A DNA stretch of 38,497 bases from a virus (lineage: Duplodnaviria > Heunggongvirae > Uroviricota > Caudoviricetes). Shown here piece after piece: positions 7,076-27,404 of this stretch. Made by a program: the position numbers and the translations under genes. The notes below the pieces were generated by a model. The model had not been told where the DNA came from and did no database searches. It saw nothing but the letters and a program-made list of their open reading frames with translations. Numbering within the stretch: the first letter of the stretch is position 1; every line of letters starts with the position of its first letter. Location of the stretch: the IMG/VR virus record IMGVR_UViG_3300014533_000149; one strand, given 5' to 3'.

Positions 7076-7087
7076 GTGACATGTCAC
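7076..7087. repeat. Perfect 12-bp palindrome GTGACATGTCAC (copy 1 of 2)
   Basis: Identical 12-mer recurs at 27393..27404. Confidence 0.5.
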
Positions 7088-7380
7088 GTCCCTTTTCTGA
7101 ATGATAGCCATTCGAAAAATGATGACATTCCACCGCAGACAACAGCAAAGATGATCCCACCAAAGAAGAGAATGCCAGCCTGCCACCACTCCCACCGCCA
7201 TACATCCACAGCGCCAACCATACCAACAATCGCTCCAACAAATGGAATATAGCTCACGATGAAAGCAATGGGGGCTGCAATTATCCAGTGCAATCCCCAC
7301 CATGATTCAAGCCCAGCCATAATTGCTGCCAACTGAAAAAGACCAACGACGATATAAACAATGAATCCTATAGCTTGCAT
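7084..7380 (-). CDS. Small multi-pass membrane protein (SieA-position candidate)
   Basis: 98 aa, ~3 hydrophobic helices, Trp-rich; SD AGGTGA upstream; follows the last large internal-protein gene. Confidence 0.5.
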   Translation of the reverse strand: MQAIGFIVYIVVGLFQLAAIMAGLESWWGLHWIIAAPIAFIVSYIPFVGAIVGMVGAVDVWRWEWWQAGILFFGGIIFAVVCGGMSSFFEWLSFRKGT

Positions 7381-7392
7381 GTAGTCACCTAT

Positions 7393-7566
7393 TTACCCAG
7401 TAAAAATCAGAGGCCTCCCCTCAATAAGGCTTGCAACAAGAACTATTCCCTGCACAACAAAGATGAACCAGCAAATAGCTTGAGTCTGAGGGTTAAGAAA
7501 ATATTTGTAGCGGTCAATAAATAACAACCCACCAGAAATTATCACACTCAAAATAATTAAAAACAC
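7393..7566 (-). CDS. Small hydrophobic protein (57 aa), below the ORF-track cutoff
   Basis: Hand-translated from GTG 7566 with SD AAGGAAG: MFLIILSVIISGGLLFIDRYKYFLNPQTQAICWFIFVVQGIVLVASLIEGRPLIFTG. Confidence 0.3.
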   Translation of the reverse strand: MFLIILSVIISGGLLFIDRYKYFLNPQTQAICWFIFVVQGIVLVASLIEGRPLIFTG

Positions 7567-7575
7567 AACACTTCC

Positions 7576-10050
7576 TTATTGCGGAGTGACATCCTGAGGT
7601 CGCCACCAGTATGTCTGGTTAAACTCTTTCTTCGAACGTTGCTCCATTTTACGCAAATAGCCTGGTGAAAAATACTCCTGCATCTGGTTAAAGATCATAT
7701 GATCGAGAGCCGCCTTTAAGTACCAGAGATTCGCACCTGGCATCAAACCTTTCCCCAGCTTCACCAGATCACCACCAGTCTGCTCACTCTTCCCTTCCAC
7801 AGCATTTAACGGTATGCCCTGAGCAATCTTCACTACGTCATCAACCAGACCAGCTACCGGGCCAAGCATCGACGCCAGCGCGCCGCTTCCGTAACTAGTG
7901 TGATCTGACAATAAAAAGTCACCGTAAAGGCCAAGACCACCACCTTTCAGTAGAGCACCAAGCCAAAATTTAGCAGCATCTTCTCCTGTCATCTCGCGAG
8001 GATTACGACCAGACGCAAGGTCGTTAAGTTGCTGCGACAAAGCGCCAAGAATGGTCGTACTGGCAATAAACGTCGCAATATATGCCGCACGCCCACCAGC
8101 AGACGGCATACCCATAGCGCGTGACCAGTGACGCATAACCACCGAGATAGGGAACGATTTAAACAGGAAAACACTTCTCGTTAATTCACCTTTCCATGTT
8201 CCACGCTGAATACCAGAACCGGTTATCAGTTGCTCACGTGCTCCCGGTGTAATAACAGCCATATCAACTTCTTCAGTTACGGCACCGAGCAGTTTACGCA
8301 TTGCCTCAAATTTCACGCGTTCAGGCTCACCAAGATGTTTAACTGCTGAATCAGGGATACGCATAATGCTTTCCGGTGTCAGCATCGTATTATTGCCGTT
8401 CCCCCAGTCCTCCTGTTGCGCCAGCTTCCATACGCTCCAGTCTGTGTCAGTAATCCCTTTGCTTTTCAGGATACGAAAATCAGAATCATCGAGGCTACGA
8501 AGGTCTGGTGTCCGTGACACTACTTCTCCCAGGCTTCCCATCATGGTTACGCCATAGGCGCGCTTGTGCGCATCTGACCATGCTGTAAGCCCACTGGCAC
8601 GCATTACCGCCGTTGCAGCCCAACGAGACACAGACGGCCCCATATTATCCATCGCCCAGCGGTTAACGCTGCCAAGTAGAGATTCCATCGCCAGACCAGC
8701 GCGGCGCGCCCGCGCAAGTTCTGTACGGTTCGTTGGGTCCATAGCTTCAAGCTGGTTGCGGAATAACTGGTTCATTGGAAGGTTGGTCACCTTCGCAGAC
8801 AGATACATGGTTCCAAGATCAGAGAACGATGACAGCAACGCGGATCCGAGTCTGCTGGCAACCAGCCAGTTGCGGATATTGTCAGACCATCGCGCGATGT
8901 GCGGATTCGCTACAGGCTGTGTCTTTCCGGAAATAAAGTTGTACAGATTCTCTGTGTTGTTCGCCAGCCGCTCGACTTTACCGGTTTTACTCGGGTTAGC
9001 TGTTGCCGTTTCTGCCTTCACCTGATCAAGAAGAGAGCGGAAAACATGATCGGGGTTTGGGCCATATGTTTCCACCAGTGCAATATCTTTACTGATACCT
9101 TCAAGGTGACCGACCATGATTTCCCATAGAGAGCGATCGCCATAAAGTTGCTGATATTGCAGATAGGAATCTGCATCTTTGAAATGTATCTGTCGTGATG
9201 CATTACCACGGTTAGCACGTGCGCCGGAAATTCGCATTCCGGTATCAGTAAGCTTATTCAGCCCACCAGTAGCGATCGTGTTATAAGCCTCTCCAAGAAA
9301 TGCAGACAACTCGGCATCGTTCATCAGTTGTCCATCGGCTCGGGTATAATATTTGCGATCCAGCTTACCTATAACATCGCTAACCCATTTATCTTTTGAT
9401 ACCGCCCCAACCTTTTCCATAGAATGATGTTGAGGGATCCCCCAGTTTTCGAGATAGCCAATGTCCCCACCAGCATCATTAAACCGGCGGCGCAGTAGAT
9501 CTGTCACTTCTCTCCACGCCTTAGCACCTTTTCTTGCTTTAGCATTGCCAGTATTTTGCCCTCGCATTTCATATACCAGGTCACGCACGCCCGCTTCATC
9601 TTCAAACAGGCCAAAAAAGCGAGGATCAACTGCTTCAAATGCCTCCTGCAATTGACTCAATGCATAATCACGAGTGGCTTTTGTTCTGGATTCAACAGAG
9701 AGGAAATTCGATTTACCGTCTGCATTAAAAGCAATAGTACGGTTAAGAGCGCCAAGTTTCCCATCAGCCCCTTGATAGCTATTGATAAATTTATCCAATC
9801 TCTGACGTGCGGCTATAGTGAGGGCCACACGACGTTTCTTTAATGCCGCTTCTCGCTGTAATTCTTCAGATGCCAATTGTGCTGCACGATACAACCGTTC
9901 TGATTCGGAAAGTTGTCGCCACGACATCGGGTCATCACGAGCAATGGAGCGCATATTTCGATAAATGCGGTCTTCAATGTTCTGTATTTCTCGCGCCGTT
10001 AACGTGCGCTGCGCCGCCTGCTGGACCGCTTGTATACATTCCTGTCTCAT
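7576..10050 (-). CDS. Large internal virion/ejection protein (T7 gp16-like position)
   Basis: 824 aa; SD GAGAGG upstream; last of three large genes following the tail tubular genes; function from size and synteny only. Confidence 0.6.
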   Translation of the reverse strand: MRQECIQAVQQAAQRTLTAREIQNIEDRIYRNMRSIARDDPMSWRQLSESERLYRAAQLASEELQREAALKKRRVALTIAARQRLDKFINSYQGADGKLGALNRTIAFNADGKSNFLSVESRTKATRDYALSQLQEAFEAVDPRFFGLFEDEAGVRDLVYEMRGQNTGNAKARKGAKAWREVTDLLRRRFNDAGGDIGYLENWGIPQHHSMEKVGAVSKDKWVSDVIGKLDRKYYTRADGQLMNDAELSAFLGEAYNTIATGGLNKLTDTGMRISGARANRGNASRQIHFKDADSYLQYQQLYGDRSLWEIMVGHLEGISKDIALVETYGPNPDHVFRSLLDQVKAETATANPSKTGKVERLANNTENLYNFISGKTQPVANPHIARWSDNIRNWLVASRLGSALLSSFSDLGTMYLSAKVTNLPMNQLFRNQLEAMDPTNRTELARARRAGLAMESLLGSVNRWAMDNMGPSVSRWAATAVMRASGLTAWSDAHKRAYGVTMMGSLGEVVSRTPDLRSLDDSDFRILKSKGITDTDWSVWKLAQQEDWGNGNNTMLTPESIMRIPDSAVKHLGEPERVKFEAMRKLLGAVTEEVDMAVITPGAREQLITGSGIQRGTWKGELTRSVFLFKSFPISVVMRHWSRAMGMPSAGGRAAYIATFIASTTILGALSQQLNDLASGRNPREMTGEDAAKFWLGALLKGGGLGLYGDFLLSDHTSYGSGALASMLGPVAGLVDDVVKIAQGIPLNAVEGKSEQTGGDLVKLGKGLMPGANLWYLKAALDHMIFNQMQEYFSPGYLRKMEQRSKKEFNQTYWWRPQDVTPQ

Positions 10051-10055
10051 TTAAT

Positions 10056-11858
10056 TTAACCTCTCAAGAAACACGCCACAGCAACATCAAACAGGCTGGA
10101 ATCCTGTATTGCCTGCTCACTTTCCCTGTTCGCTTCATCCAGTACTTCACGCGCACTGCGCGATTGTGGATTACCATCATCATCCAGCACGGTGATTATC
10201 ATGTCCGGAGATTCAAGCAGCGAGTCTTCAGCTATACGCAGATCAATATCTCCTGCCGGATCTGCCATCATTTTTTGTTCTGTCTGTTGCAATATCTTAC
10301 CGGGCTCAAAAGGAGCTACTTCGTCTGGCGTCCTGACCTCTGCTGTTTTATAGAATGAAACAGCCTGAGCATTAAGTTCACTTTCTGCCTGCTGTCGCCG
10401 TGCCAGTTCTGCTCGAGCTTCAAAAAACTGACCTCCAGGCTCGTGCGGCGCCAACGCGTTACGGGAAAATTCCAGGCGTTCTTGTGCCTGCCGGATTCGT
10501 TGATCAATATCGCGAAGTCTGGCCTGTTTATCTGATCGAGCACGAGACAAAGCTTTACCGCTACCGGTTGGCTCTTCTGCAAGAATTTGTGCACGCTGTT
10601 CAGTGAGATTGTCGATAATTCGTTGGCTATTAGCGATTTCAGACTGGTAAACCTGTCTATCGCCACGCGGCAAAAGCTGCGCAGCCTGTTCTTCAAGCAA
10701 CCGATTTTCGATAGCGCGCGCCGTTACTCCATCATCTACAGATGACAGAGCCTCATTAACTGCCTGAGACAGCAGATTCTTGCGCCCAGGAATTTCACTG
10801 AAAGATGCAGACTCAACAATGCTGGCAACGTCTACAGGTCTCCCCTGGCTAACATCAGACATAGCTTTTCGCAGAGCCTGAATGTGAGAATTACGCGAAA
10901 GCACGTTGATCGGCACGCCAGGAGCAATATCAATTTCAGCATGATGAGCGGCATTCGCCGCCAGTGCAGCATCGATATCAACTGGTGAAAAATTTGGTGT
11001 GCTTGTAGACTCGCCGCGAGAGTTAATAAATCTGCCGACACCACCAAACGCCACCCCAAGAACAGCATCAATAGCAATTGCCTGTCGATCCAACACATCA
11101 TACTGGTTAGCCATTTCGCTATAGCCACCATCACGAAGCGTTTTTGCAGTAAGCCCACGCTGTGCCATACCGAACGCAATATTTGTACCTGCGGCATAGG
11201 CAATATCTGGCGTTGCACGTACTGCTGTTGCTGCGGCGCGTCGCACTGAACTCTCACCCGTCCGCGCAAGCTGAGCCGCCACACCTTCCGCCAGCGCACC
11301 ACCAGCACGTAACCCGAGGCTCATAGGGATCAGCGTTCCGGCACCAGCAGTAATGCCCTGCACTAATCCCGCTTCCTGCGCCGTCCTGAAATCAACACCC
11401 TGTGCTGTCAGCCGTTCAAACTCAGAAAAACCCTGTAGAGAAGTTACCGCCGCAGCACCTCCGACCGGACCACCGAGCGTTGTACCGACAACAGCCTGCC
11501 CGCCCATATCGAACAACCCATAAAGAACCTGCCCAGCGGTTCCAGTTGTCGCGGCATCAGGCGTCAGCCGCTTAACCTGCTGCTCTGCTAGTTTTCTCTG
11601 CTCGGCAATGTATGAAACTGAAGTATCATTGAGCGAGGTGTTTTCGTTAACAAACTGAGCAATCGGGGATACGATTTTATCCATCCCTGCCCATAGCAAC
11701 TGATCTGGCTTTGCCACCAGCCCGGAGTACAAACCAGACAATGCCGCTCCTACAGCATTGTCGAAAAAACCAACATCGCTGTTAAAGCCAGCTGGATTTG
11801 ATGCTGCTTCGTCAAGCTGCTGATTCTGGTTTACTGGATTAAGGCCAAAGTAACTCAT
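10056..11858 (-). CDS. Internal virion/ejection protein
   Basis: 600 aa, Gly/Ala-rich N-terminal half and charged coiled-coil-like C-terminal half; ATGA overlap with upstream gene. Confidence 0.6.
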   Translation of the reverse strand: MSYFGLNPVNQNQQLDEAASNPAGFNSDVGFFDNAVGAALSGLYSGLVAKPDQLLWAGMDKIVSPIAQFVNENTSLNDTSVSYIAEQRKLAEQQVKRLTPDAATTGTAGQVLYGLFDMGGQAVVGTTLGGPVGGAAAVTSLQGFSEFERLTAQGVDFRTAQEAGLVQGITAGAGTLIPMSLGLRAGGALAEGVAAQLARTGESSVRRAAATAVRATPDIAYAAGTNIAFGMAQRGLTAKTLRDGGYSEMANQYDVLDRQAIAIDAVLGVAFGGVGRFINSRGESTSTPNFSPVDIDAALAANAAHHAEIDIAPGVPINVLSRNSHIQALRKAMSDVSQGRPVDVASIVESASFSEIPGRKNLLSQAVNEALSSVDDGVTARAIENRLLEEQAAQLLPRGDRQVYQSEIANSQRIIDNLTEQRAQILAEEPTGSGKALSRARSDKQARLRDIDQRIRQAQERLEFSRNALAPHEPGGQFFEARAELARRQQAESELNAQAVSFYKTAEVRTPDEVAPFEPGKILQQTEQKMMADPAGDIDLRIAEDSLLESPDMIITVLDDDGNPQSRSAREVLDEANRESEQAIQDSSLFDVAVACFLRG

Positions 11859-14368
11859 TGCGGAATATCTCCGGAGAATCTCTGACGCTTCTGTGTCAGA
11901 TTAAGAACAACGGGAGAACCATCATCTTTCAGCAGATAACCAGTACCAAGTTTCACCAGGTACTGACTATCGCCGTAACTTTGCAAACCATACTGACCAG
12001 GCGGTGTTTTTATCCCAGAGCCGACAACTTGTTCATTCCAAGCCTGATTAACCTGCTTATCGAATTGCTCTGCAGACATTCCCCACGGCAAAAGGACATT
12101 CCCCATTCCGTTATAGTCATGCACGCCACCTGTAGCTACGTTAACAGCCTGTTTCCAGATATCATTGTCAATTTCGCCTGATACCACGCCTTTTTTCGCC
12201 ATCACACCAGCGTAATAGTCCTTTGCGATCTCGTATGCCATTGATGCCCCCTGAGCGTCACCAGCAAATGCATCCTTCACCATGTCAGAAAACTCAAGGC
12301 GAAGATCAGCATCTTTAGGCATCGGAATACCTTTCGCATCATCAGTACCTTTACGAGCCGCCGCGCCAGCAAGAATTGTCTGCGCAGCGGTTTCAGGAGA
12401 CACGGAAACATCCGGATTAAACCAGTTTTTTTCTGCCAAAATACCACCTGGCTTATCCATCAGTATCCCGGCAACGGCAGCAGATGGAGCGTTGGCACTG
12501 ATCTGCTGTAGTGCTGACATATACACCTGCCCACCACCAGTGCTCTGCCTGATGGTATCGAGATATGCTGCCTGTTGGGAAACGGGCGCATCACGAAAGA
12601 AAACACCGATCTGATTGGCCTCGTCTTTGGAAAAGAACGTCAGTGGAGTGCCATATGACTTAGCAAGGTCACTGACCTGAGCAGCACGCAAGGCAACGCT
12701 CTGTCCAAAGTTATCCTTATTGCTCATGTCGATAGGCTTTGTCTGTCCGGCGGCAAGAGAGAACTGTACAGGATCAGCCTGTCGCTGCTTTATCACCTGA
12801 CTTGCAGCCGACACAACGTTGTCATAAAGAGCGGCTCCCGCCGCATAACCCTCCCCTGTCTCACCAGTATCCGGGCGTAATTGCTCAACATATGCTGTAA
12901 TGCTGCTTGTCGGCATGTTGCGGAAAGAGCCTATATACTGTCCGGCGATTTGCGTATTTCTGAACTCGGTATATCGCAGGTTTCCTTCTCTTACTCCATA
13001 AGCTGCAATAAAATCAGCCTCACCAGGTGGGTTAGGAAATTCAACGCCACGCATATACGCAGCTGTCGCATCGCGAACCTGGCTGTCAATCATCGTTTTA
13101 TATTCAGCCTGCTGCTGCCGACGCAGTTGATCCGCCTGTCGCATAAAACTTGCCTGCGCCTCAGGAGATGCCGCATCGAATGCTGCATTACCGGTATAGC
13201 GTTTGGTGTTGGTTGGAATTGTTGATAAACCAAGTGCTGCACTGACACCAGCAGTTAACTGCTGATCACTGTATGGCTGGCTACCGTTCTCATGATGGAT
13301 AATGGCTGCACAAAGCGCCTTCAGGGTATCAGGATTAGATGCATCGAGAGGCTCATCAGCAGAAACGCCAAGTTGTTCGCACACTGCTTTGATATACGAC
13401 ATAGTGTCATTTTTATCAGCAGGCGGTGCCCAGCGATTAATTATCTCGCTGACGGTATCAATACCCTGCCTCTGATACGACATCAGGTTCCGCCCTAATG
13501 CACGAATCCCGTGTTCAGGTGTTTCGAATTTAGCAAATCGACCATCATCACCGGTCTGGCCTACCCACGGATTAGTTTTGCTGTATTCGAGATTTCCTGG
13601 GTTATTGTTGCGTATGCCACGGGCACGCTCGGAAGAGTCACTATCTGCTACAGCACGGCGAGCTCCAGCAGCAGTATCACTTAACTCGCCATTACTTTGG
13701 ATGAATGCGGTCGCATTGTTTGCCGACCACTGGGACAATGCAGCATCAGCAACCTTCTCTTTAAACTCGATTTTCTTGGCCTGGATTTGCTCGTTGCTCC
13801 AGCCATGTGCAACACCGTACTCCTCAATTTGCTGGAAAGTTTGTTTGTTAGCCAATACGTATGCGGCGTTGTCGCCATACAATGCTGCGGCATTTTTACC
13901 ATTGTTCAGCAGTGTCGCCTGAAACTGGCCTTCTTCGTAGGCATTAATTTGCCCTATCTCGTGTCGCCCGGCCTGCGTAGTGAACTGAATGCGCTGCTGC
14001 TGCGCCTGCTGCATGAAAGCATTACGAGCCTGTTCATCCGGCAGCGACATAGCCAGTTGTTCGACCTGAGCATCAAACTGCTGCGTATACTCATGGCCTT
14101 TTCCAATAGCATTTTTCCCTTTCAGGTTAAGCAATCCTGTTTCAGGATTATTCAGCAGATCGCTGCTTATCTGACTGAGGTTAAGAGATGCCTCCTGAGC
14201 CAGAGCGATATTGGCACGCTGTTTTGCCTGCCCCAAAACATCAATTGCCTCTGTCCCTGCCCGAACAAAAGCATCACCAATACCTTGCTGAGAAAACGTC
14301 TGCAAGCCTGCTGACTGAACTCCACGACTCTCAACCTGACGTCCGGATACTGTTGGTACGACTGGCAT
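11855..14368 (-). CDS. Internal virion protein (T7 gp15-like position)
   Basis: 837 aa from ATG 14368 with SD GGAGGA; start overlaps upstream stop (TAATG); track ORF extended further 5' without an RBS. Confidence 0.6.
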   Translation of the reverse strand: MPVVPTVSGRQVESRGVQSAGLQTFSQQGIGDAFVRAGTEAIDVLGQAKQRANIALAQEASLNLSQISSDLLNNPETGLLNLKGKNAIGKGHEYTQQFDAQVEQLAMSLPDEQARNAFMQQAQQQRIQFTTQAGRHEIGQINAYEEGQFQATLLNNGKNAAALYGDNAAYVLANKQTFQQIEEYGVAHGWSNEQIQAKKIEFKEKVADAALSQWSANNATAFIQSNGELSDTAAGARRAVADSDSSERARGIRNNNPGNLEYSKTNPWVGQTGDDGRFAKFETPEHGIRALGRNLMSYQRQGIDTVSEIINRWAPPADKNDTMSYIKAVCEQLGVSADEPLDASNPDTLKALCAAIIHHENGSQPYSDQQLTAGVSAALGLSTIPTNTKRYTGNAAFDAASPEAQASFMRQADQLRRQQQAEYKTMIDSQVRDATAAYMRGVEFPNPPGEADFIAAYGVREGNLRYTEFRNTQIAGQYIGSFRNMPTSSITAYVEQLRPDTGETGEGYAAGAALYDNVVSAASQVIKQRQADPVQFSLAAGQTKPIDMSNKDNFGQSVALRAAQVSDLAKSYGTPLTFFSKDEANQIGVFFRDAPVSQQAAYLDTIRQSTGGGQVYMSALQQISANAPSAAVAGILMDKPGGILAEKNWFNPDVSVSPETAAQTILAGAAARKGTDDAKGIPMPKDADLRLEFSDMVKDAFAGDAQGASMAYEIAKDYYAGVMAKKGVVSGEIDNDIWKQAVNVATGGVHDYNGMGNVLLPWGMSAEQFDKQVNQAWNEQVVGSGIKTPPGQYGLQSYGDSQYLVKLGTGYLLKDDGSPVVLNLTQKRQRFSGDIPQ

Positions 14369-14913
14369 TATAATCCTCCGGGTAATCTGGTTCCTGCTGC
14401 TGCCCCGATTGGCGCAGGAGTGCTTTGAGTAAACGGACTCCACGTCCCACCAAACATCTGGTACGCACCGTATGCCTTCAGAGGCGCAGTGAGCAATGTT
14501 GTTGCTGCTCCCACATTCCCCTGTTTACGGGCTGAACTGGCTTCTGCTTTATAGTTGGCAGCCTGAACCTGATAACCGTAAGCCTCGCGTTGCGCGTTAT
14601 TCACCGTCGTCAGCGAATCAAGAGCGCCAAACTGGGCAGTGTCGCCAAATATATCCAGCGCGTTACCTGTAGATAAATCAGCGCCGGTAGCCCCCATTGT
14701 CGCCGCCTGTGTACCAAGCCGCTGTCGGGTCTCTCTGCGTCGTTGCTCAGCTTCAGCGTTACCTCTGTTTATTGCATCATTTGCCTGAGCTGTGGCTATA
14801 TCTGCGTTCGCTTCTGCAACCTTCGAGGCATACTTTCCCTGTTGGTACTGGGTGTATGCCTGAATGCCACTCATGGCGAGCATTGCGCCACCAGCAATAA
14901 CCGGATCGCACAT
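14368..14913 (-). CDS. Internal virion protein (T7 gp14-like position)
   Basis: 181 aa, Ala/Gln-rich; SD GGAGAG; translationally coupled to neighbours. Confidence 0.5.
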   Translation of the reverse strand: MCDPVIAGGAMLAMSGIQAYTQYQQGKYASKVAEANADIATAQANDAINRGNAEAEQRRRETRQRLGTQAATMGATGADLSTGNALDIFGDTAQFGALDSLTTVNNAQREAYGYQVQAANYKAEASSARKQGNVGAATTLLTAPLKAYGAYQMFGGTWSPFTQSTPAPIGAAAGTRLPGGL

Positions 14914-19162: not shown

Positions 19163-19172
19163 CGATATCACC

Positions 19173-19610: not shown

Positions 19611-19661
19611 CTTCTTTCTCCATTAGTGGGCCTGTTGCGGCCCACAGGTTAATAACAGGCG

Positions 19662-20648: not shown

Positions 20649-20662
20649 TGTCATTTCCTCTC

Positions 20663-21358: not shown

Positions 21359-21360
21359 GA

Positions 21361-21657
21361 TCACTCCTGTTCACTGGCCTCTTTGGCCATCTTCAAATAC
21401 TGTTCAGGGCAATGCGCCATAACGCGCTGAAACAGTTCCAGCGCCAGATTGCGTTGCCCCTCATTAAATGCCATTGCCATAGCGTCCATCGGTGAGATAG
21501 CGGAAAACACCCGGCCTTTCTCCAGCACAGACCAGACAACGCGACGCCCCTGTTCACTGCTCATGACAAAGCGAATGTCATCAATTTCACGCTGTGCCAT
21601 GTCACGTTGCTTACGGGCGTTTTCTTCTTTCAGTTGATCATCTTCGTAATCTGTCAT
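21361..21657 (-). CDS. Hypothetical small protein between portal and scaffold
   Basis: 98 aa; ATGA overlap with the portal stop; SD GGGTGGG. Confidence 0.5.
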   Translation of the reverse strand: MTDYEDDQLKEENARKQRDMAQREIDDIRFVMSSEQGRRVVWSVLEKGRVFSAISPMDAMAMAFNEGQRNLALELFQRVMAHCPEQYLKMAKEASEQE

Positions 21658-23333
21658 TGTGATTGCCCACCCTGACCACTAACTGCATTCGCCATAGCTG
21701 ACAAAACACTCGGATCCGAAGTTTTAGCTTCGCTTAGCGTCTTGGCACCCTGTGCCGCCGCCATCCCCATCGCCATCATTTGTTGCTGCTGTTGTTGCTG
21801 TGCCCGTTGCTGGCGAGCCTGCTCAACCTGTTCCTGCGGAACAATGAAGGTTGGAGACACTCCGGACATATCAGCGAATGCATCGATCGCCTGATCAACA
21901 TTGAGTTTGTCGAGAGCTTCTGGTTTCGCTTGCGCAAGTTGACCAATGAAGTTGACCGTAGACGCCAGACTGGACAGGCCGATAGACTTCTGCGCCTGAG
22001 CCATGACAGAAATGTATTCGACCTTCAGGGGCATACCTTCCATCGCGTCAGGCGGTGGCGGCAGCATGTTTTTACGCACCATCATCGAGAAAGCGCGGTC
22101 AATGAGAGGATTAAGACATTCGTCGTTCAGACGCTCCAGAACCGGCCCCAACATCAGAAGTTTTTCTTCTTTCATTTCGATCACCGCTTCAACAGGCATC
22201 GAGCGGGTATTGATGTTCTGCAACATCATGAACAGATCGACAAAGTAGGCGCTGTTAATGATTTGACGCGTGTCCTGAATGTCTGCCACCAAATCTGCTG
22301 TACTGGGGTTAACCAGATAAGCAGGCCTGAAACCATCCTGACCAGTAATCTGATCGATATACGTGATGTCGCCAGGAAGAAGGGAGGCACGCTGATTCTT
22401 GAGGGAAGTCGGAGCAACCATCGGAGGATTGGTGGCTTTATCAATCAACTGCGACTTGCGCTTCTGGAGAAGCTGTAATGCCTTAACAGGTCCAAGCGCC
22501 AGCATACCCGGGCATGATGATCCATAAACATCTTCGCCGTTAACTTCCCAGCGCGGAGCCATAATTGGAAACTCATCGAATCCGGACTCACGCAACAACT
22601 TGTCGTTATCACCGCCAACCTCGTAATAAACCGATTTGAATGGCTTGTTCTTGCCATCCAGCTTCGATGTATCGCGGTCAATGTTCGGGTAAACCGAATG
22701 CATCACTTCAATCCACTTCTCGTAGGTGCCGCTTTCCCACATGCTTTTTACGGATTCGCTGACGTTATTTAGCCCGAACTCCTGAACAAGCTGACGAACA
22801 GTCATAGAGAACTTGCGAAAACAGGTGTCCACACTGCCACGAGGTGAGTTAGCCAGGTAGTAACTGCCTATAGGGAATGGCATTGTGCGAATGATGTCCT
22901 CGTCATCCTCCAGCACCGCCATTGCACCAGTGCTGTATGTGCCGAGGCTTCCGTATAACTGCGGCAGCGACTGATAGAGATTCGACTTATTGAACATATC
23001 GTTCATGCGGTTCTGCACCGCCTCAAGCCACAACTTAACAGGGCCATAATCCATCATTTCAGGATCTGGCGTAGCCAGGCGAAACCACGGACGCGCGGGG
23101 CTTGTGATGCCTGACATCATGCCGCTAGCGAGAGTGCGCGCCGCCATAGTCCCGGTCGAATCAATAATGCGTGTATTCCGTCGATCGTTACGGTTGACCT
23201 CAGAAGTCAGAAAGCGGGAACCACGCGGGTTGATGTAATCACTCAACTCGCGCCAGTGCGGCTCGAACGACTGACGCTCGCTTTCAAGTTGTGCGAACTG
23301 TTTGTTCAATCGCTCTTTAGTTGTTTCCGCCAT
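21654..23333 (-). CDS. Portal protein
   Basis: 559 aa with Gln/Ala-rich C-terminal tail; immediately downstream of the terminase genes in the late operon; SD GGAG. Confidence 0.7.
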   Translation of the reverse strand: MAETTKERLNKQFAQLESERQSFEPHWRELSDYINPRGSRFLTSEVNRNDRRNTRIIDSTGTMAARTLASGMMSGITSPARPWFRLATPDPEMMDYGPVKLWLEAVQNRMNDMFNKSNLYQSLPQLYGSLGTYSTGAMAVLEDDEDIIRTMPFPIGSYYLANSPRGSVDTCFRKFSMTVRQLVQEFGLNNVSESVKSMWESGTYEKWIEVMHSVYPNIDRDTSKLDGKNKPFKSVYYEVGGDNDKLLRESGFDEFPIMAPRWEVNGEDVYGSSCPGMLALGPVKALQLLQKRKSQLIDKATNPPMVAPTSLKNQRASLLPGDITYIDQITGQDGFRPAYLVNPSTADLVADIQDTRQIINSAYFVDLFMMLQNINTRSMPVEAVIEMKEEKLLMLGPVLERLNDECLNPLIDRAFSMMVRKNMLPPPPDAMEGMPLKVEYISVMAQAQKSIGLSSLASTVNFIGQLAQAKPEALDKLNVDQAIDAFADMSGVSPTFIVPQEQVEQARQQRAQQQQQQQMMAMGMAAAQGAKTLSEAKTSDPSVLSAMANAVSGQGGQSQ

Positions 23334-23347
23334 TTCAATGACTCCGG

Positions 23348-23554
23348 TTACTGACCAAGTAGCGTTTTACCGCTGGTATTAGCGGTTGATGTGTCGCCCT
23401 GAGAACCGGTAAGCAGCGTAGAACTACGACCAGCAGCAGCGCGACGGCGACGAGTTTCTTCGTCGCGGGCATCAACAACGGCGGCATCCTGCTCCTGTGG
23501 TGCTGCCTGAACTTCTGGTGTTGCAGGCACTGATGGTGAGCTACCCATGCACAT
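23348..23554 (-). CDS. Hypothetical small protein (68 aa), doubtful
   Basis: Low-complexity ORF; its start region shares a 12-mer (TCAATGACTCCG on the plus strand) with the portal start region. Confidence 0.25.
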   Translation of the reverse strand: MCMGSSPSVPATPEVQAAPQEQDAAVVDARDEETRRRRAAAGRSSTLLTGSQGDTSTANTSGKTLLGQ

Positions 23555-23643
23555 ATCAATGACTCCGTACGCAATTAAATTATTACCAATTTAACCACAT
23601 ATGATTTATTTATCGTAGGAGGTTGACATTTAACGCACGAATT

Positions 23644-23660
23644 ATTACCTTTCAGGTAAT
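23644..23660. promoter_or_regulatory. Operator-like palindrome ATTACC-TTTCA-GGTAAT
   Basis: Perfect dyad upstream of the portal-proximal part of the late operon. Confidence 0.5.
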
Positions 23661-23980
23661 CAAAAAGTTCATTCCGGTTACTAACCTGACTGGCTTGTCG
23701 TTAAATTGAACAGGTGGAGTGAGCTTTTATTTTGAGCAGTACGGCGTATGGCACATGCGCCGATAGCGGTCTGGGTACGTTTAAGGGGCACCCTCCCTTG
23801 CTCGGGCAAACGAACCAGGTAGCCGGAATGTGCAAGTCGAGCGGTTTTATTCCGCGCACGGGGATTCACCATCCCGGCGATTCGGTGTGACGCCTCGGAA
23901 GAGACGAGGTACAACGATGAGAGCATTTATGGATCCGCGACAAAGTGTGGCGCCTTAACAGGCTAAGTGCTCTCAGCGTT

Positions 23981-24057
23981 GTGGCATTAGCTCAGTTGGA
24001 CAGAGCAACCGCCTTCTAAGCGGTTGGTCGCAGGTTCGAATCCTGCATGCCACGCCA
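23981..24057 (+). tRNA. tRNA-Arg (anticodon UCU)
   Basis: 77 nt; cloverleaf by hand: acceptor GTGGCAT/ATGCCAC, D-stem GCTC/GAGC, anticodon stem ACCGC/GCGGT with loop CTTCTAA, T-arm GCAGG-TTCGAAT-CCTGC, 3' CCA; differs from E. coli argU in stems as recalled. Confidence 0.85.
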
Positions 24058-24100
24058 GAATCACGCCTAAGGACCGTGATGCCAGAAGTTCCAAGTGCTT

Positions 24101-24144
24101 GGCGGTGATGGTTTCCCTTGAAGGACTATCACCGCCCTTTTTAC
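24101..24144 (+). terminator. Rho-independent terminator downstream of the tRNA
   Basis: GGCGGTGAT...ATCACCGCC stem followed by CTTTTT. Confidence 0.55.
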
Positions 24145-24220
24145 AGCAGGACGCCATTGCGATGACTTCATGCTGTAAACCCGTACAGCCACGGAAGGCA
24201 TAACTCATTGCTTCCAGTTC

Positions 24221-24245
24221 GCCCACTTCAGTGGGCTTTTTTTTC
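24221..24245 (+). terminator. Rho-independent terminator
   Basis: GCCCAC-TTCA-GTGGGC followed by 8-9 T. Confidence 0.65.
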
Positions 24246-24257
24246 TAGTGACTACTG

Positions 24258-24274
24258 ATTACCTTATGGGTAAT
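24258..24274. promoter_or_regulatory. Operator-like palindrome ATTACC-TTATG-GGTAAT
   Basis: Perfect dyad ~30 bp upstream of the 24306 start. Confidence 0.5.
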
Positions 24275-24305
24275 ATGCTGCAAACAAATAACACAAGGCC
24301 GTGAC

Positions 24306-25196
24306 ATGCTTGACTTCATCCGTGACATTTACTCCTCTTTCCGCCAAGCATCTCTTGAGCGGGTGAAAAGCCCGTTCCTTGGGGCATTTGTTTTTTCCTG
24401 GCTTTGCTTTAATTGGCAGATGTTAGCAATTCTATTTTTTAGTTCTAAGGATATTGAAAAGCGCCTTGCTATTATTAATGGCTCTTTCGGCATCGTCAGC
24501 TTTTTAATTGCGCCAATATGCACTACAGCATTGATAGTTATCCTTTTACCGCAAATTAATAAATTAATTACAATAATACAAGATAAACCTAACTCAGACA
24601 CAATTGAAATGAGCCTTGCATCTAAAATAAAGATCGCCGAACTGCAGCAACTATTAGCAGAAAATGAAGCAAGAAAGAAACTTGCTGATAAAAAAGAAGA
24701 ACGCTTCATTGAAGAGAATATTATTTCAATAAAAAAAGACCATGAAAAAGCAATAGATAACCTTAAAGACAAAGAAAGTAAAATCTTAAATCTCACGGAC
24801 ACAATAACTGAACTTCAGAGCAAACTGGTTAAAGCTGAGGCCACTCTCAAAGTTGAACAGGAGTCAAGATCCCAAGTGCAGAATGAATTGATTATTGAAA
24901 AAGAGAACAAGCGGAAATTAGAAGACAACATTCTGCACCTTAATTTAAGTTTAAAAAAAAACCAATCAGAATTGGCCATTGCAAAAGAAGCCTATGATAA
25001 TACCTTGATGGCTTATAATGAACTTAACACAACATTAAAAAAAGCAGAAAGCTCAATAATAAACTTCAATGCTAACTTTCCTTTTTTAACTGACATAAAT
25101 AACAGCACCCCAAATACATACTTAAAAATAAATAAAAATGCATGGGAGCATTTAGTTAGTTTAAATTTAAGTCTAAAGGAGAAAATACAAAAATAA
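24306..25196 (+). CDS. Membrane-anchored coiled-coil protein (moron; candidate exclusion/abortive-infection function)
   Basis: 296 aa; two hydrophobic helices in the first ~90 aa then a long Lys/Glu/Leu-rich coiled-coil-like region; strongly AT-rich; opposite strand to the flanking late genes. Confidence 0.55.
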   Translation: MLDFIRDIYSSFRQASLERVKSPFLGAFVFSWLCFNWQMLAILFFSSKDIEKRLAIINGSFGIVSFLIAPICTTALIVILLPQINKLITIIQDKPNSDTIEMSLASKIKIAELQQLLAENEARKKLADKKEERFIEENIISIKKDHEKAIDNLKDKESKILNLTDTITELQSKLVKAEATLKVEQESRSQVQNELIIEKENKRKLEDNILHLNLSLKKNQSELAIAKEAYDNTLMAYNELNTTLKKAESSIINFNANFPFLTDINNSTPNTYLKINKNAWEHLVSLNLSLKEKIQK

Positions 25197-25219
25197 ATAA
25201 CCAATCCACTATGGCATAT

Positions 25220-26689
25220 TTACTCATACGGGTCATAATCTATTATAGCCTTACCCTGCTGCTGGCGCGGATCATTAAGTTTTTTTGTGACCGGAAAAGC
25301 AAACGTCAGCAGTAGCGCATCGCCTTTACCCGGCGAACGCCCAAGCCGCTCCTTGATATCTTCCTTCGGTTCGATAACGATTTTACCGTCCACTCGAACT
25401 TTGTACTCTGCCGCCGACAGGTCGTCCGCTGTTTCCTGGTCATCCAGCATGCCGCCCAGCCTCAGCCATGTCTTGCATGAGTTGAACATCTCCCCACGCT
25501 TGTTGAGCATCTGCGGGTCAGTAGACGCGCCACCGAACGGAACAAGTTGCCACGTCCGCCCCCAGCCGTCACCGATGGACTTCAGCCCGGTGCCGTAACC
25601 AAAGTCGATAAACACCGCATCAGCCTGGTACTGGTCTTCAAAGTCGGCGATGCGCTTCGCCATAATCAGATCGTCAGTGGTCTTGTTTCCCGTCCAGAGG
25701 ACTTTGCTGTGCAGCCCCTGTCGCAGGTATATCACCGCGTCATCCACGCCGGAATACGCCGGGTCGACGCCAATAATCACCGGAGCGTGCGCCACCTGCG
25801 CAGCGGTCACGACGCGCTTCATCGCCTCATCGGTCAGCCCGGTCGGGATGAACTGCAGTTCTGACGCGTCAGGGAAGATCCCCCGCACACGGACCTTCAC
25901 GAAGTCGCTGTCCTCGCCATGGTCTTCAATCCATTTTTGAATCTGCTCTTTGTTCGTTCCTTCGACGGTACGGCTGTCGATCTGCTTCGTAACCCAGCGG
26001 TGTTTATATTTGCGGAAGCATTCCCTGAAACGCCCGGAGTTACGCGTAGGGTTTCCGAACGCTACCCAGATGATTTCCGTGTCTTCGTCCGTCAGCGCAC
26101 CCTCGGCCACCTCCCAAACTTTATCAGCAATGTTTGACGCCTCATCGAATACCACGATGATCCGCTTACGCTCGTTGTGCAGGCCGGCGAACGCCTCGGT
26201 GTTGTGCTCAGACCACGGGATTGCGTCAGCGCGCCAGCGTTTATCGTGGCCCGGATCATTGCTGTACATGGCTGTTGCTGGGGTAGAGAACCAGTCTTTC
26301 GTGATGGACAGGTTTGCCCACTTAATCACTTCAGGCCATGTCTTGGTACGCAGCTGATTTTCGGTGTTGGCAGTGACTACTGCTTTGCAGTCTTCGCAGG
26401 TTGACATACCCCAGTTCAGGAGCATGGAAATACCCGCACTTTTCCCTATGCCGTGGCCTGAAGAAACGGCAATCATCAGCGGCTGATGACGGGTTTCTGG
26501 GTTCCTGAGGTGCTCACCAACCGTATCGAGCATCCATCTTTGCCAGTTTCTTGGTCCGGATGCATGCGCCAGCTCTGTACCCTCTTCCCCCCACGGGAAC
26601 GCATAGAGGGCATAGCCAAGCGGATCGTGAGTGAACCCTGCTATATCCTCGATCAACTGCTCTTCAGGAGATAACGATGTATCTGTCAC
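25220..26689 (-). CDS. terL: Terminase large subunit
   Basis: 489 aa; Walker A-like SSGHGIGKSAG and acidic nuclease-like C-terminal half; GTG start overlapping the terS stop (GTGA) with SD AGGATGG. Confidence 0.8.
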   Translation of the reverse strand: MTDTSLSPEEQLIEDIAGFTHDPLGYALYAFPWGEEGTELAHASGPRNWQRWMLDTVGEHLRNPETRHQPLMIAVSSGHGIGKSAGISMLLNWGMSTCEDCKAVVTANTENQLRTKTWPEVIKWANLSITKDWFSTPATAMYSNDPGHDKRWRADAIPWSEHNTEAFAGLHNERKRIIVVFDEASNIADKVWEVAEGALTDEDTEIIWVAFGNPTRNSGRFRECFRKYKHRWVTKQIDSRTVEGTNKEQIQKWIEDHGEDSDFVKVRVRGIFPDASELQFIPTGLTDEAMKRVVTAAQVAHAPVIIGVDPAYSGVDDAVIYLRQGLHSKVLWTGNKTTDDLIMAKRIADFEDQYQADAVFIDFGYGTGLKSIGDGWGRTWQLVPFGGASTDPQMLNKRGEMFNSCKTWLRLGGMLDDQETADDLSAAEYKVRVDGKIVIEPKEDIKERLGRSPGKGDALLLTFAFPVTKKLNDPRQQQGKAIIDYDPYE

Positions 26690-27282
26690 TGATTACCATC
26701 CTGACGTTCTTTGAGTCGCTTCCTGGCTGCTGCTATGCGATCAGCAATTGTCACATTCACATTAACATCCAGACGTTCTTTGAACGCGTTGACATCAACA
26801 TGCTTACCAATCAGCTCAAGGTTCTTCACCTTGTCAGGCCATTTAATTTTTTTGAGGATTGTCTCTATCGAATCCTCGTTCATGTTCATGATGGTCGATG
26901 ACAGATCAAAGCCACTAAGCGTAGTGCGCCAGATTTTCGGCCACTCACGGATTGGTTTAAGGCTCCCATCGTCGTTGAGGATGTCGATCACGTCCATCTG
27001 GTCGATCTCCACCAGGCGCATGAGAACGTAATCAGCACTGACGCGCATTCGTTTGTTGCGCTCCTCCATCAACTCGGCAATCCGTTTTTGAATGCGTTCA
27101 TCGCGCATCATGACACTGGCTTTAACTGCCGCTGTATTTGGAGAGAATCCTGCGTTAATCGCTGCCTGAGTCTGGTTTTCAGGCGTTTTGATGTATGACT
27201 GGCAATAAGCCTCCTGCATTGCTGTTAGTGGCTTAAATTGCGTTGATTTGCGTTTATAGGTTTTAGGTTCAGCAGGCATCAT
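26686..27282 (-). CDS. terS: Terminase small subunit
   Basis: About 198 aa from ATG 27282; small-terminase-like N-terminal DNA-binding region; directly upstream of terL. Confidence 0.65.
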   Translation of the reverse strand: MMPAEPKTYKRKSTQFKPLTAMQEAYCQSYIKTPENQTQAAINAGFSPNTAAVKASVMMRDERIQKRIAELMEERNKRMRVSADYVLMRLVEIDQMDVIDILNDDGSLKPIREWPKIWRTTLSGFDLSSTIMNMNEDSIETILKKIKWPDKVKNLELIGKHVDVNAFKERLDVNVNVTIADRIAAARKRLKERQDGNQ

Positions 27283-27289
27283 AACCACC

Positions 27290-27321
27290 GTGGTAATAGT
27301 TACCGTTGTGGTAATAGTACC
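27290..27321. repeat. Tandem direct repeats GTGGTAATAGTTACC / GTGGTAATAGTACC
   Basis: Two copies 18 bp apart immediately upstream of terS; each contains a GGTAAT half-site in everted arrangement. Confidence 0.5.
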
Positions 27322-27322
27322 A

Positions 27323-27351
27323 TGCAAAATAAAGCCGCCATAGTTGGCGGC
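27323..27351 (-). terminator. Rho-independent terminator between early/nin genes and the late operon
   Basis: On the minus strand GCCGCC-AACTAT-GGCGGC followed by TTTATTTTG. Confidence 0.6.
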
Positions 27352-27392
27352 AGTATTCAAAACCCATCAAATTCATCATGCATAATCTACTC

Positions 27393-27404
27393 GTGACATG
27401 TCAC
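27393..27404. repeat. Perfect 12-bp palindrome GTGACATGTCAC (copy 2 of 2)
   Basis: Identical to 7076..7087; overlaps the stop codon of the 27401..27742 gene, ~110 bp upstream of terS. Confidence 0.5.

What the first reader, a model, noticed from the sequence alone, without database searches (positions are those of the whole stretch)
7076..27404. Identical 12-bp palindrome GTGACATGTCAC at both ends of the late operon
The same perfect 12-mer occurs at 7076..7087, directly after the late-operon terminator, and at 27393..27404, ~110 bp upstream of terS at the stop codon of the last early gene. A specific 12-mer recurring by chance in 38 kb is unlikely (expected well below 0.01), and the two copies bracket the roughly 20-kb virion gene block. 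They could be binding sites for a late regulator, DNA-looping or boundary elements, or relate to packaging.
Basis: seen in the sequence. Interest (0 to 1): 0.5.

Follow-up and report, generated by a model that had tools for sequence, protein, structure and literature searches.

The report
Conserved phage dyad sites for RHH protein
The two identical 12-base palindromes are real, strongly conserved sites of the form GTGAC-NN-GTCAC that recur in many temperate phages next to one uncharacterised small DNA-binding protein gene, so they are most likely that protein's binding sites at operon boundaries.

Summary
In detail: GTGACATGTCAC occurs exactly at 7076-7087 and 27393-27404 and nowhere else; no shuffle gave even one copy. 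The window is an epsilon15/phiV10-type (Uetakevirus) prophage with its late genes on the minus strand. In every relative examined, the same dyad sits at equivalent places although the flanks differ: (A) on the stop codon of the last early gene, upstream of terS; (B) just after terL; (C) between the last structural-operon gene and its terminator. Site B is destroyed in this window; only GTGACATG remains at 24299-24306. Half-sites GTGAC/GTCAC and the 2-bp spacer are invariant, while the centre varies. The gene ending in site A (27401-27739, phrog_536) is predicted to be a ribbon-helix-helix protein with a Cys-rich C-terminal domain. Homologues down to about 30% identity (N15 gp46, ZF40 gp22, Vibrio K308, metagenomic phages) also have GTGAC-NN-GTCAC at or just after their stop codon, often with 2-3 copies per genome against 0.04 expected. 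Best reading: these are operators for this protein at transcription-unit boundaries, and they double as recombination junctions. What binding does (read-through control, roadblock or bridging) is not resolved. The half-sites equal E. coli matS, but the spacer is 1 bp shorter. The motif was not found in the searchable literature.

The parts
27393..27404 (.). Site A: perfect dyad GTGAC-AT-GTCAC. Its bases 2-4 on the minus strand (27403-27401) are the TGA stop codon of the phrog_536 gene.
   Evidence: It is perfect at the same place in 77 of 79 close relatives and in epsilon15, Tyrion, PAT1, TL-2011b and phiv142-3.
27401..27739 (-). Last early gene (112 aa; epsilon15 gp49 / phiV10 gp55 / N15 gp46 family, phrog_536). 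Predicted ribbon-helix-helix DNA-binding protein with an N-terminal basic helix and a C-terminal Cys-rich (zinc-type) domain. It is the candidate binder of the dyad.
27334..27351 (-). Intrinsic terminator hairpin (GCCGCCAACTATGGCGGC, then TTTATTTT), 41 nt downstream of site A on the late strand.
   Evidence: An equivalent terminator is annotated in epsilon15 and phiV10.
27282..27314 (.). Two prophage-repressor operator motifs (TTACC-N5-GGTAA) directly upstream of terS. This is a different motif from the dyad.
   Evidence: The epsilon15 record annotates the homologous site as a repressor-binding site.
26686..27279 (-). terS (short start at ATG 27279), the first gene of the terS-terL unit.
24299..24306 (.). 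Remnant of site B: only GTGACATG (+ strand) is left. Its ATG is the start codon of the AT-rich moron ORF 24306-25196 (+), which replaces the hairpin and the other half-site found after terL in relatives.
   Evidence: Site B is intact in phiV10, epsilon15, Tyrion and about 55 of 80 IMG/VR relatives.
7076..7087 (.). Site C: perfect dyad. Bases 7086-7084 are the TGA stop codon of ORF 7084-7380 (-), and the dyad directly abuts the terminator hairpin.
   Evidence: The site is present in 80 of 80 relatives (73 perfect, 7 with one mismatch), with at least 5 different upstream flanks.
7050..7075 (-). Intrinsic terminator of the structural operon (AGGCCGCTTTCGCGGCCT, then TGTTTTTA). Together with site C it forms the roughly 59-bp conserved island 7030-7088.
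   Evidence: It is annotated as a terminator in phiV10.
7084..7380 (-). Variable last ORF of the structural operon (98 aa, phrog_3075). It is replaced by unrelated small ORFs in other relatives, and the junction falls exactly at the dyad.
21594..21605 (.). One-mismatch copy GTGCCATGTCAC inside a conserved coding region. It is probably not a functional site.
   Evidence: conserved as coding sequence in relatives.

Best explanation
The two palindromes belong to a family of GTGAC-N2-GTCAC dyads. These are most likely the DNA binding sites (operators) of the phage's own small ribbon-helix-helix/Cys-rich protein. That protein is encoded by the last early gene (27401-27739), whose stop codon lies inside site A.

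Inferred mechanism: the protein is made from the early-right operon during lytic growth and dimerises through its RHH fold. It is proposed to read the two invariant GTGAC half-sites, while the centre dinucleotide is not read.

In Uetakeviruses the sites lie at the 3' boundaries of successive rightward transcription units: the early-right operon, terS-terL and the structural operon. Each lies within 0-41 nt of an intrinsic terminator. Occupancy is therefore most likely to control what RNA polymerase does at these boundaries, either read-through into the next late unit or a block to transcription crossing the boundary.

Because the dyad (with the adjacent hairpin) is the only conserved sequence between variable modules, it also serves as the junction at which modules are exchanged.

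Shown: existence, conservation, dyad anatomy, linkage to the gene, and the predicted RHH fold. Inferred: binding. Speculative: the transcriptional consequence.
For: (1) Non-random and conserved. There are 0 copies in shuffles. GTGAC-NN-GTCAC occurs 2-4 times per genome against about 0.04 expected in 9 Uetakeviruses from E. coli, Salmonella and Enterobacter. The copies sit at three equivalent positions although the flanks cannot be aligned.

(2) Dyad anatomy. Most mismatches among positional homologues fall in the two centre bases (AT, CT, TT, GT, AC, AG, GC, TG); half-site changes are rarer, and the 2-bp spacing never changes.

(3) Linkage to the gene across lineages. Of 138 distinct phrog_536-family proteins in the fetched loci, 94 have their TGA stop codon inside the dyad, 14 have the dyad 1-30 nt after the stop, and 6 have it 31-400 nt after. 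This includes N15 gp46 (33% identity), ZF40 gp22, Chlobot, L382 (P0163, 38%, dyad 140 nt after the stop) and P0206 (31%). In Vibrio K308 (32%) a copy lies about 226 nt after the stop. In L381 the copy lies about 25 nt before the true stop, so one search counts it among the 24 without a downstream dyad.

(4) N15, ZF40, K308 and L382 each carry 3 copies.

(5) This ORF is the only window ORF with homologues in all six other motif-bearing genomes compared.

(7) The RNA hairpin formed by the 12-mer is only -1.2 kcal/mol and no better than shuffles. C5 and G8 are invariant while positions 6-7 vary, which fits duplex-DNA recognition rather than RNA structure.

(8) Terminator-like sites lie within 60 nt of 36% of 300 distinct motif contexts, against 6-9% of control positions.

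(9) Upstream and downstream flank types at site C occur in all combinations, which shows recombination within the dyad-hairpin unit.
Against: No binding data exist, and the tools cannot model protein-DNA complexes. The half-sites stay identical while the protein diverges to 30% identity. That also fits a conserved host factor, because the phages known to carry the family all infect Enterobacterales, Vibrionales or Aeromonadales. Of the 138 family members, 24 have no perfect dyad within 400 nt downstream; these include a Yersinia P2-like phage and an Aeromonas phage that instead carries GTGACCGGACAC twice, upstream of genes. At least one phage without any family member (Klebsiella ST16-OXA48phi5.3) has a perfect copy at a cro stop/start junction. 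The site contexts differ between phage groups (before terminators, before ribosome-binding sites, inside repA or cII), so no single regulatory outcome explains them all. The loci sampled are partly non-independent and partly retrieved through the motif itself.
Confidence: 0.6

Rival explanations
1. The dyads are bound by a conserved host protein rather than by the phage protein. The obvious candidate is MatP, whose matS site GTGACRNYGTCAC has identical half-sites. The phage would use MatP, for example to displace MukBEF or to position or condense its DNA.
For: The half-sites are identical to matS (consensus from PMC6907758; a laboratory matS site GTGACAGTGTCAC from PMC7394560). The half-sites are invariant across phages whose phrog_536 proteins are only 30% identical. 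Known hosts of the family (Escherichia, Salmonella, Klebsiella, Yersinia, Vibrio, Aeromonas, Pectobacterium) all belong, from my own knowledge, to the clade that has MatP. K308 also carries one 13-bp site that fits the matS consensus.
Against: The spacer is 2 bp in more than 300 distinct contexts, not 3 bp. There is no 13-bp GTGAC-N3-GTCAC in the window even with one mismatch. A 1-bp change in spacing normally abolishes binding by a dimer (general knowledge). The host-factor idea does not explain why one copy is tied to the stop codon of the phrog_536 gene in unrelated phage types.
Confidence: 0.1
2. No dedicated binding protein is involved. The 12-mer is a module linker: a short conserved junction that supplies a TGA stop and, in the AT-centre form, an ATG start on either strand. 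It persists because recombinants that join modules there are viable.
For: BLAST homology between relatives stops at 7088 and, for Chlobot, starts at 27408. At least 5 upstream and at least 3 downstream flank types at site C occur in all combinations. The TGA is used as a stop codon at sites A and C, in epsilon15 gp18 and in K308 CDS27. The ATG is used as a start codon by the moron at 24306 and by the gene after cro in the Klebsiella phage.
Against: Twelve bp is too short for efficient homologous exchange. Centre variants lack the ATG, yet the half-sites stay perfect. In many cases the stop codon lies outside the dyad: Chlobot, ZF40, and the P0138 and P0206 types. Any conserved functional island within a variable intergenic region would appear as a junction. 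The linker idea does not explain the 2-3 copies per genome in unrelated phages, or the copies inside coding regions (N15 repA, ZF40 cII).
Confidence: 0.12
3. Site A is part of a Q-like late switch. The dyad overlaps the -35 element of a constitutive promoter (GTGACA-18-CATGAT) whose short transcript ends at the terminator 27351-27334. The adjacent gene product would load onto RNA polymerase there and make it terminator-resistant, as lambda Q does at PR'-tR'.
For: The regulator gene lies directly upstream of its site and of a terminator that precedes the late genes. A promoter-like match uses GTGACA as the -35 element. Epsilon15 and PAT1 show GTGACA-17-TAAATT (read). In the lambda-like contig L385 the homologue sits where Q would. 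It is followed by the dyad, a strong TTGACG-17-TATAGT promoter, a leader and a terminator ahead of the terminase genes. The C-terminal half has weak similarity to the RNA-polymerase-binding zinc-finger proteins TraR and YbiI (E = 0.02-0.04).
Against: The promoter match is weak (9 of 12 positions) and such matches are expected by chance (0.9 per region). In epsilon15 the putative -10 element overlaps the annotated terminator hairpin, so the transcript would not contain it. Sites B and C have no promoter on the late strand. In N15, Chlobot and the nin-region lambdoid group a separate Q-like gene exists and the family member lies elsewhere. No Q-family or zf-dskA_traR Pfam match reaches the threshold.
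Confidence: 0.12
4. The palindrome acts in the RNA, as a small 3'-UTR hairpin next to the terminator or a processing or protein-binding signal.
For: At A, B and C the dyad lies between the last stop codon and an intrinsic terminator, so it is transcribed into 3' UTRs.
Against: The predicted hairpin is 4 bp, at -1.2 kcal/mol and z = -0.03 against shuffles. A 5-bp stem with a 2-nt loop is sterically impossible. C5 and G8 are invariant, although as loop-closing or loop bases they would not need to be. In other phages the dyad lies inside coding regions or upstream of promoters.
Confidence: 0.04

Closest known systems
Operators of phage and plasmid ribbon-helix-helix regulators (P22 Arc/Mnt, CopG, AmrZ, TraM/TraY, RHH antitoxins)
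   Different: The site is at the 3' end of the regulator's own gene and at operon ends, not over its own promoter. There is a single 12-bp dyad rather than tandem subsites. The protein carries an extra N-terminal basic helix and a C-terminal Cys-rich domain. No Pfam RHH family reaches its threshold.
MatP / matS of E. coli (Ter macrodomain organiser)
   Different: The phage protein lacks MatP's four-helix bundle and coiled coil. The sites are in phage DNA, not in the chromosomal terminus region.
Lambda Q with its QBE / PR' / tR' late antitermination module
   Same: A regulator gene is the last early gene and lies immediately upstream of its presumed DNA site. A terminator precedes the late genes. 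A zinc-type domain is present.
   Different: There is no homology to any Q family, no convincing promoter around the site, and there are three sites instead of one. In several phages the family coexists with a bona fide Q-like gene.
Conserved regulatory cassettes and boundary sequences at mosaic junctions (PeSL cassettes of T4-type phages; boundary sequences of lambdoid phages; from my own knowledge)
   Same: A short conserved regulatory element (dyad plus terminator) sits exactly at the junction of exchangeable gene modules, and flank combinations are reticulate.
   Different: The element is a 12-bp perfect dyad with half-site conservation that points to a dedicated binding protein. It is not a promoter or stem-loop shared only through common transcription signals.

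Membership tests
Operator of a ribbon-helix-helix transcription factor | Short dyad-symmetric (or tandem) duplex DNA site whose conservation pattern matches recognition by a dimer | tested here: met
   The half-sites and the 2-bp spacer are invariant while the centre varies, across more than 300 distinct contexts.
Operator of a ribbon-helix-helix transcription factor | A cognate RHH protein is encoded by the same element | tested here: met
Operator of a ribbon-helix-helix transcription factor | Specific binding of the protein to the site | not testable with these tools
   There is only indirect evidence, from gene-site linkage and from this being the only ORF shared by all genomes compared.
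matS (MatP binding site) | 13-bp consensus GTGACRNYGTCAC | tested here: not met
   The sites are 12 bp long. There is no GTGAC-N3-GTCAC in the window, even with one mismatch.
matS (MatP binding site) | The binding protein is MatP or a MatP homologue | tested here: not met
   hhalign of the family profile against E. coli MatP gives probability 0.5% and E = 0.11. Only generic RHH fold similarity is seen.
Lambda-type Q antitermination module | The DNA site is embedded in a promoter that gives a short terminated transcript | tested here: inconclusive
   There is a weak promoter-like match GTGACA-18-CATGAT, followed by a terminator. The geometry fails in epsilon15, and there is no promoter at sites B and C.
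Lambda-type Q antitermination module | The regulator belongs to a Q protein family | tested here: not met
   No Pfam or NCBIfam match was found.
Intrinsic terminator | Stable GC-rich RNA hairpin followed by a U-tract | tested here: not met
   The 12-mer itself folds at -1.2 kcal/mol and is not followed by a T-tract. The true terminators are the adjacent hairpins.
pac/cos packaging site | A single site at or in terS, or at the genome ends, that is required for packaging | tested here: not met
   There are three copies per genome. Site B is absent from about 17 of 80 close relatives. The N15 copies are at 28.5, 33.2 and 39.3 kb, far from cos at position 1. Cleavage itself was not tested.
Mosaic boundary / linker sequence | Lies exactly at breakpoints between exchangeable modules, with reticulate flank combinations | tested here: met

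The most novel reading that the evidence does not exclude
The phrog_536 proteins (RHH plus Cys-rich domain) and their dispersed GTGAC-N2-GTCAC sites form a previously unrecognised, widespread phage system, with one site nearly always on the gene's own stop codon. On this reading it acts on RNA polymerase or on DNA architecture at operon boundaries. Possible forms are a DNA-site-loaded termination/antitermination switch that replaces Q in Uetakeviruses, or a MatP-like bridging or anti-SMC device that uses matS-type half-sites. Its sites would also be the preferred junctions of module exchange.
Probability: 0.25. Interest if true: 0.75.

Novelty: new variant of a known kind. Interest (0 to 1): 0.55.

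Why it matters
Late-gene control in epsilon15/phiV10-type phages is not understood; phiV10 is used as an E. coli O157 reporter phage. These phages have no Q homologue, and the annotated records do not mark these sites. A conserved dyad with a candidate cognate protein gives a directly testable handle on the early-to-late switch and on how successive operons are insulated or coupled. The same gene-site pair occurs in N15, ZF40, lambdoid and Vibrio phages, so one experiment could assign a function to a family of several hundred hypothetical proteins. The identity of the half-sites to matS raises a testable question about cross-talk with host chromosome organisation. The exact coincidence of the sites with mosaic breakpoints offers a concrete case for how regulatory sites shape module exchange.

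Tried and rejected
1. CI operator. The prophage repressor operator is a different motif, TTACC-N5-GGTAA (14 hits against 0.73 expected; annotated in epsilon15). Rejected.

2. RNA hairpin. The 12-mer folds at -1.2 kcal/mol, no better than shuffles. Rejected as the main role.

3. Physical genome end. The phiV10 record starts inside site A, but this is a record convention (terS first), and the dyad spans the record junction with one mismatch. Many P0122-type IMG/VR contigs end 246 bp after the gene, but they end at the stop codon of an AlpA-like gene, which points to a trimmed prophage boundary and not to a DNA terminus.

4. Homology to MatP. Not significant by profile comparison.

5. TraR/DksA zinc-finger membership. 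Only E = 0.02-0.04 against PDB sequences, and no Pfam hit in any of the 56 members. Kept only as a lead.

6. Foldseek against the PDB was uninformative, and the single-sequence AF2 model was poor.

It therefore could not give a clean co-occurrence statistic.

9. Literature. The 12-mer is absent from the searchable full-text library. The epsilon15 genome paper and the MatP-matS structure paper were not held.

Full report
**1. Observation**

GTGACATGTCAC occurs exactly twice in the 38,497-bp window, at 7076-7087 and 27393-27404. None of 100 dinucleotide-preserving shuffles contained a single copy. With up to two mismatches only one more site appears, 21594-21605. It lies inside a conserved coding region and is within chance expectation.

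**2. What the window is**

BLAST of both neighbourhoods, and of the major capsid protein, identifies an epsilon15/phiV10-type temperate podophage (genus Uetakevirus). It lies in prophage orientation, with lysis genes at the left end and the integrase at the right end. The late genes are on the minus strand:
- terS, about 26686-27279
- terL, 25220-26689
- portal, 21654-23333
- the last large virion gene, 7576-10050
- a small variable ORF, 7084-7380

**3. Anatomy of the two sites on the late strand**

*Site A.* The last early gene (27739-27401) ends with a TGA formed by bases 2-4 of the palindrome. An intrinsic terminator follows 41 nt later (27351-27334), then two repressor operators (27314-27282), then the terS ATG at 27279.

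*Site C.* ORF 7380-7084 also ends with the palindrome's TGA, in the same register. The palindrome directly abuts the terminator hairpin 7075-7058 and its T-tract.

In the direction of late transcription, therefore, the palindrome precedes the terminator at both sites.

**4. Relatives show a three-site system**

In epsilon15, VB_ST_E15, PAT1 (Salmonella), Tyrion, BUCT554 (Enterobacter), phiV10, phiv142-3 and TL-2011b (E. coli) the dyad is at equivalent positions. The flanks are often not alignable. The positions are:
- **A**, at the stop codon of the gp49/gp55 gene
- **B**, 2-4 nt from a hairpin just after terL, in front of a reverse-oriented moron
- **C**, in front of the structural-operon terminator

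Composition predicts about 0.04 copies of GTGAC-NN-GTCAC per genome; 2-4 are found.

In 80 IMG/VR loci fetched with the site-A gene, site A is perfect in 77 and has one mismatch in 2. Site B is perfect in about 55. No copy occurs in the 10 kb of early genes upstream. In 80 loci fetched with the last virion gene, site C is present in all: 73 perfect and 7 with one mismatch.

The epsilon15 and phiV10 GenBank records annotate terminators, repressor sites, IHF sites and RNase III sites, but not this dyad. The 12-mer is absent from the searchable full-text library.

**5. Site B in this window**

Directly after the terL stop codon, the canonical 74 nt, the hairpin and half of the dyad are replaced by an AT-rich moron (ORF 24306-25196 on the + strand, phrog_13369). 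Only GTGACATG remains, at 24299-24306, and its ATG is the moron's start codon.

About 17 of 80 close relatives lack site B completely, with several different replacements. Site B is therefore dispensable, whereas A and C are nearly universal.

**6. Dyad anatomy**

Among positional homologues, most differences fall in the centre dinucleotide. Centres seen are AT, CT, GT, GC, TT, AC, AG and TG. Half-site changes are rarer, and the 2-bp spacer is never altered. Sites within one genome can differ in their centres: phiv142-3 has AT/AC/AT and K308 has GC/AC/AC.

This is the signature of a dimeric protein reading two GTGAC half-sites on duplex DNA. As RNA, the 12-mer forms only a 4-bp hairpin of -1.2 kcal/mol, no better than shuffles.

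**7. The linked gene**

The 112-aa product of 27739-27404 matches phrog_536 ('transcriptional regulator') but no Pfam or NCBIfam family. An exhaustive profile-free search found 146 clusters at 50% identity.

With a 56-sequence alignment, AlphaFold2 gives pLDDT 89.7. The model has these elements:
- a basic N-terminal helix, with R8 and R13 conserved in at least 90% of members
- an extended segment, 20-29
- helices at 30-42 and 52-75
- a Cys-rich knuckle, with C79 and C82 invariant and C99 in at least 90%
- a last helix

**8. The gene and the dyad travel together**

| Homologue | Identity to window protein | Where the dyad lies |
|---|---|---|
| P0122 type | about 59% | GTGAC-NN-GTCAC on the stop codon |
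| P0138 type | about 47% | CTGTGACGCGTCACAG, 1 nt after a TAG stop |
| Pectobacterium phage ZF40 gp22 | 66% | TGTGACATGTCACA, 2 nt after the stop |
| Phage Chlobot (lambda-like, early-left operon) | 86% | perfect copy, 7 nt after the stop |
| N15 gene 46 | 33% | GTGACTGGTCAC on its TGA |
| L381 | about 30% | about 25 nt before the true stop |
| P0206 (marine metagenome) | 31% | 14 nt after the stop |
| P0163 (L382) | 38% | 140 nt after the stop |
| Vibrio phage K308 | 32% | about 226 nt after the stop |

N15, ZF40, K308 and L382 each carry three copies.

Over all fetched loci there are 138 distinct family proteins:
- 94 have their stop codon inside the dyad
- 14 have the dyad 1-30 nt after the stop
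- 6 have it 31-400 nt after
- 24 have none within 400 nt

The sample is partly biased, because some loci were retrieved through the motif itself. This ORF is also the only window ORF with BLASTP homologues in all of N15, ZF40, K308, Chlobot, L381 and L382; the integrase is next, with three of six.

Exceptions exist:
- A Yersinia P2-like phage has no dyad near its homologue.
- An Aeromonas phage has GTGACCGGACAC twice, each about 25 nt upstream of a start codon.
- Klebsiella phage ST16-OXA48phi5.3 has no family member but has one perfect copy at the cro stop and next-gene start.

**9. What binding might do**

In Uetakeviruses each site lies between the last stop codon of a transcription unit and an intrinsic terminator. 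For site B this applies to the reverse-oriented moron. The spacing is 0-4 nt at B and C and 20-41 nt at A.

Terminator-like sites lie within 60 nt of 36% of 300 distinct motif contexts, against 6% of random positions and 9% of post-stop positions. The contexts are not independent.

The protein is encoded by the last early gene, in the position Q occupies in lambdoid phages. These phages have no Q homologue. In the lambda-like contig L385 and in K308 the homologue also sits immediately before the late or lysis genes. Control of read-through at operon boundaries is therefore the most economical reading.

Several facts stop me from committing to one regulatory outcome:
- In N15, Chlobot and a nin-region lambdoid group the gene coexists with a Q-like gene and lies elsewhere.
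- In some phages the dyad directly precedes the ribosome-binding site of the next gene (N15, Chlobot).
- In N15 and ZF40 some copies lie inside coding regions.
- The promoter-like match that uses GTGACA as a -35 element at site A is weak. Its geometry fails in epsilon15.

I therefore commit to 'operator of the phrog_536 RHH protein' at about 0.6. I treat 'controls transcription across the boundary' as the most likely consequence, at roughly half of that.

**10. Boundary behaviour**

BLAST homology between relatives stops at 7088 in eight records. phiV10 shares only the 59-bp island 7030-7088. Chlobot homology begins at 27408.

At site C there are at least five upstream gene types and at least three downstream flank types. 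These occur in all combinations; for example, the 98-aa-ORF type and the p21 type are each found with three downstream types. This shows recombination within the dyad-hairpin unit. It is compatible with a functional site being the only conserved island between exchangeable modules. It does not by itself require a dedicated recombination function.

**11. Relation to matS**

The half-sites are those of E. coli matS, GTGACRNYGTCAC (PMC6907758, PMC7394560), and MatP contains an RHH. Against membership:
- The phage sites are consistently 1 bp shorter.
- No 13-bp form exists in the window.
- The host-factor idea does not explain the link to the gene's stop codon.

The sites are not matS. Whether they work like matS (bridging, interplay with MukBEF) is open. 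The constancy of the half-sites over 30%-identical proteins keeps a host-factor reading alive at about 0.1.

**12. Verdict**

The finding is real and biologically meaningful. The 'two ends of the late operon' framing is incomplete, because this is a three-site system with one site lost here. The packaging idea is unsupported.

The element is best filed as a new variant of a known kind: operators of an RHH regulator, with unusual placement and an uncharacterised, widespread cognate protein family.

Noticed in passing
window 4685-4699, 5065-5079, 6113-6127, 23645-23659, 24259-24273, 27282-27314, 30351-30427, 32696-32758, 33456-33532: The prophage-repressor operator motif TTACC-N5-GGTAA occurs 14 times against 0.73 expected. 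It lies not only in the immunity region but also in front of terS, in front of the structural operon and near the tailspike gene. The late operons therefore appear to be repressed directly by the prophage repressor.
   Followed up: partly
window 24306-25196 (+): An AT-rich moron ORF (296 aa, phrog_13369, no Pfam match) is inserted directly after the terL stop codon. Its start codon is the ATG of the truncated site-B palindrome. At least five other unrelated insertions occupy the same slot in close relatives.
   Followed up: partly
window 23981-24057 (+): A tRNA-Arg(tct) gene lies between terL and the structural operon, on the strand opposite to the late genes.
   Followed up: no
window 29283-29346: A run of 64 N (a masked or unresolved stretch) lies inside the early region.
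   Followed up: no
window 27404-27739 (-), residues 48-110: The C-terminal half of the phrog_536 family gives weak profile hits to the RNA-polymerase secondary-channel proteins TraR and YbiI (DksA-type zinc finger; E = 0.02-0.04). If real, the protein would combine an RHH DNA-binding domain with an RNA-polymerase-binding module.
   Followed up: partly
L383 (Klebsiella phage ST16-OXA48phi5.3) 7537-7548: This phage has no phrog_536 homologue but carries a perfect GTGACATGTCAC. Its TGA is the stop codon of cro and its ATG is the start codon of the next gene. The same context recurs in five IMG/VR contigs.
   Followed up: partly
L384 (Aeromonas phage 14AhydR10PP) 251-262 and 3032-3043: The imperfect dyad GTGACCGGACAC occurs twice, each copy about 25 nt upstream of a start codon. 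One of these start codons belongs to the distant phrog_536 homologue itself. This may be a diverged site in a different position relative to the gene.
   Followed up: no
L261 (Vibrio phage K308) 19491-19503: Besides three 12-bp dyads, K308 has one 13-bp GTGACACCGTCAC that fits the matS consensus. Its TGA is the stop codon of CDS 27.
   Followed up: no
L258 (phage N15) 28550-28561, 33237-33248, 39269-39280: N15 carries the same asymmetric-centre 12-mer (GTGACTGGTCAC or its complement) three times: upstream of the antirepressor operon, inside repA, and on the stop codon of gene 46. None of these copies is annotated in the record.
   Followed up: partly
window 6257-7052 (+): The moron region to the left of site C encodes a DUF4760 protein (6257-6796) and a 77-aa ORF. 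Both converge on the shared terminator. This region differs completely from the Bro-N/antirepressor genes found at the same place in phiV10 and TL-2011b.
   Followed up: no
L174, L181, L194, L199, L220, L221 (IMG/VR contigs): Six independent contigs of about 40 kb end at the same point, the stop codon of an AlpA-like gene 246 bp after the phrog_536 homologue. This looks like trimming at a prophage boundary rather than a physical DNA end.
   Followed up: partly
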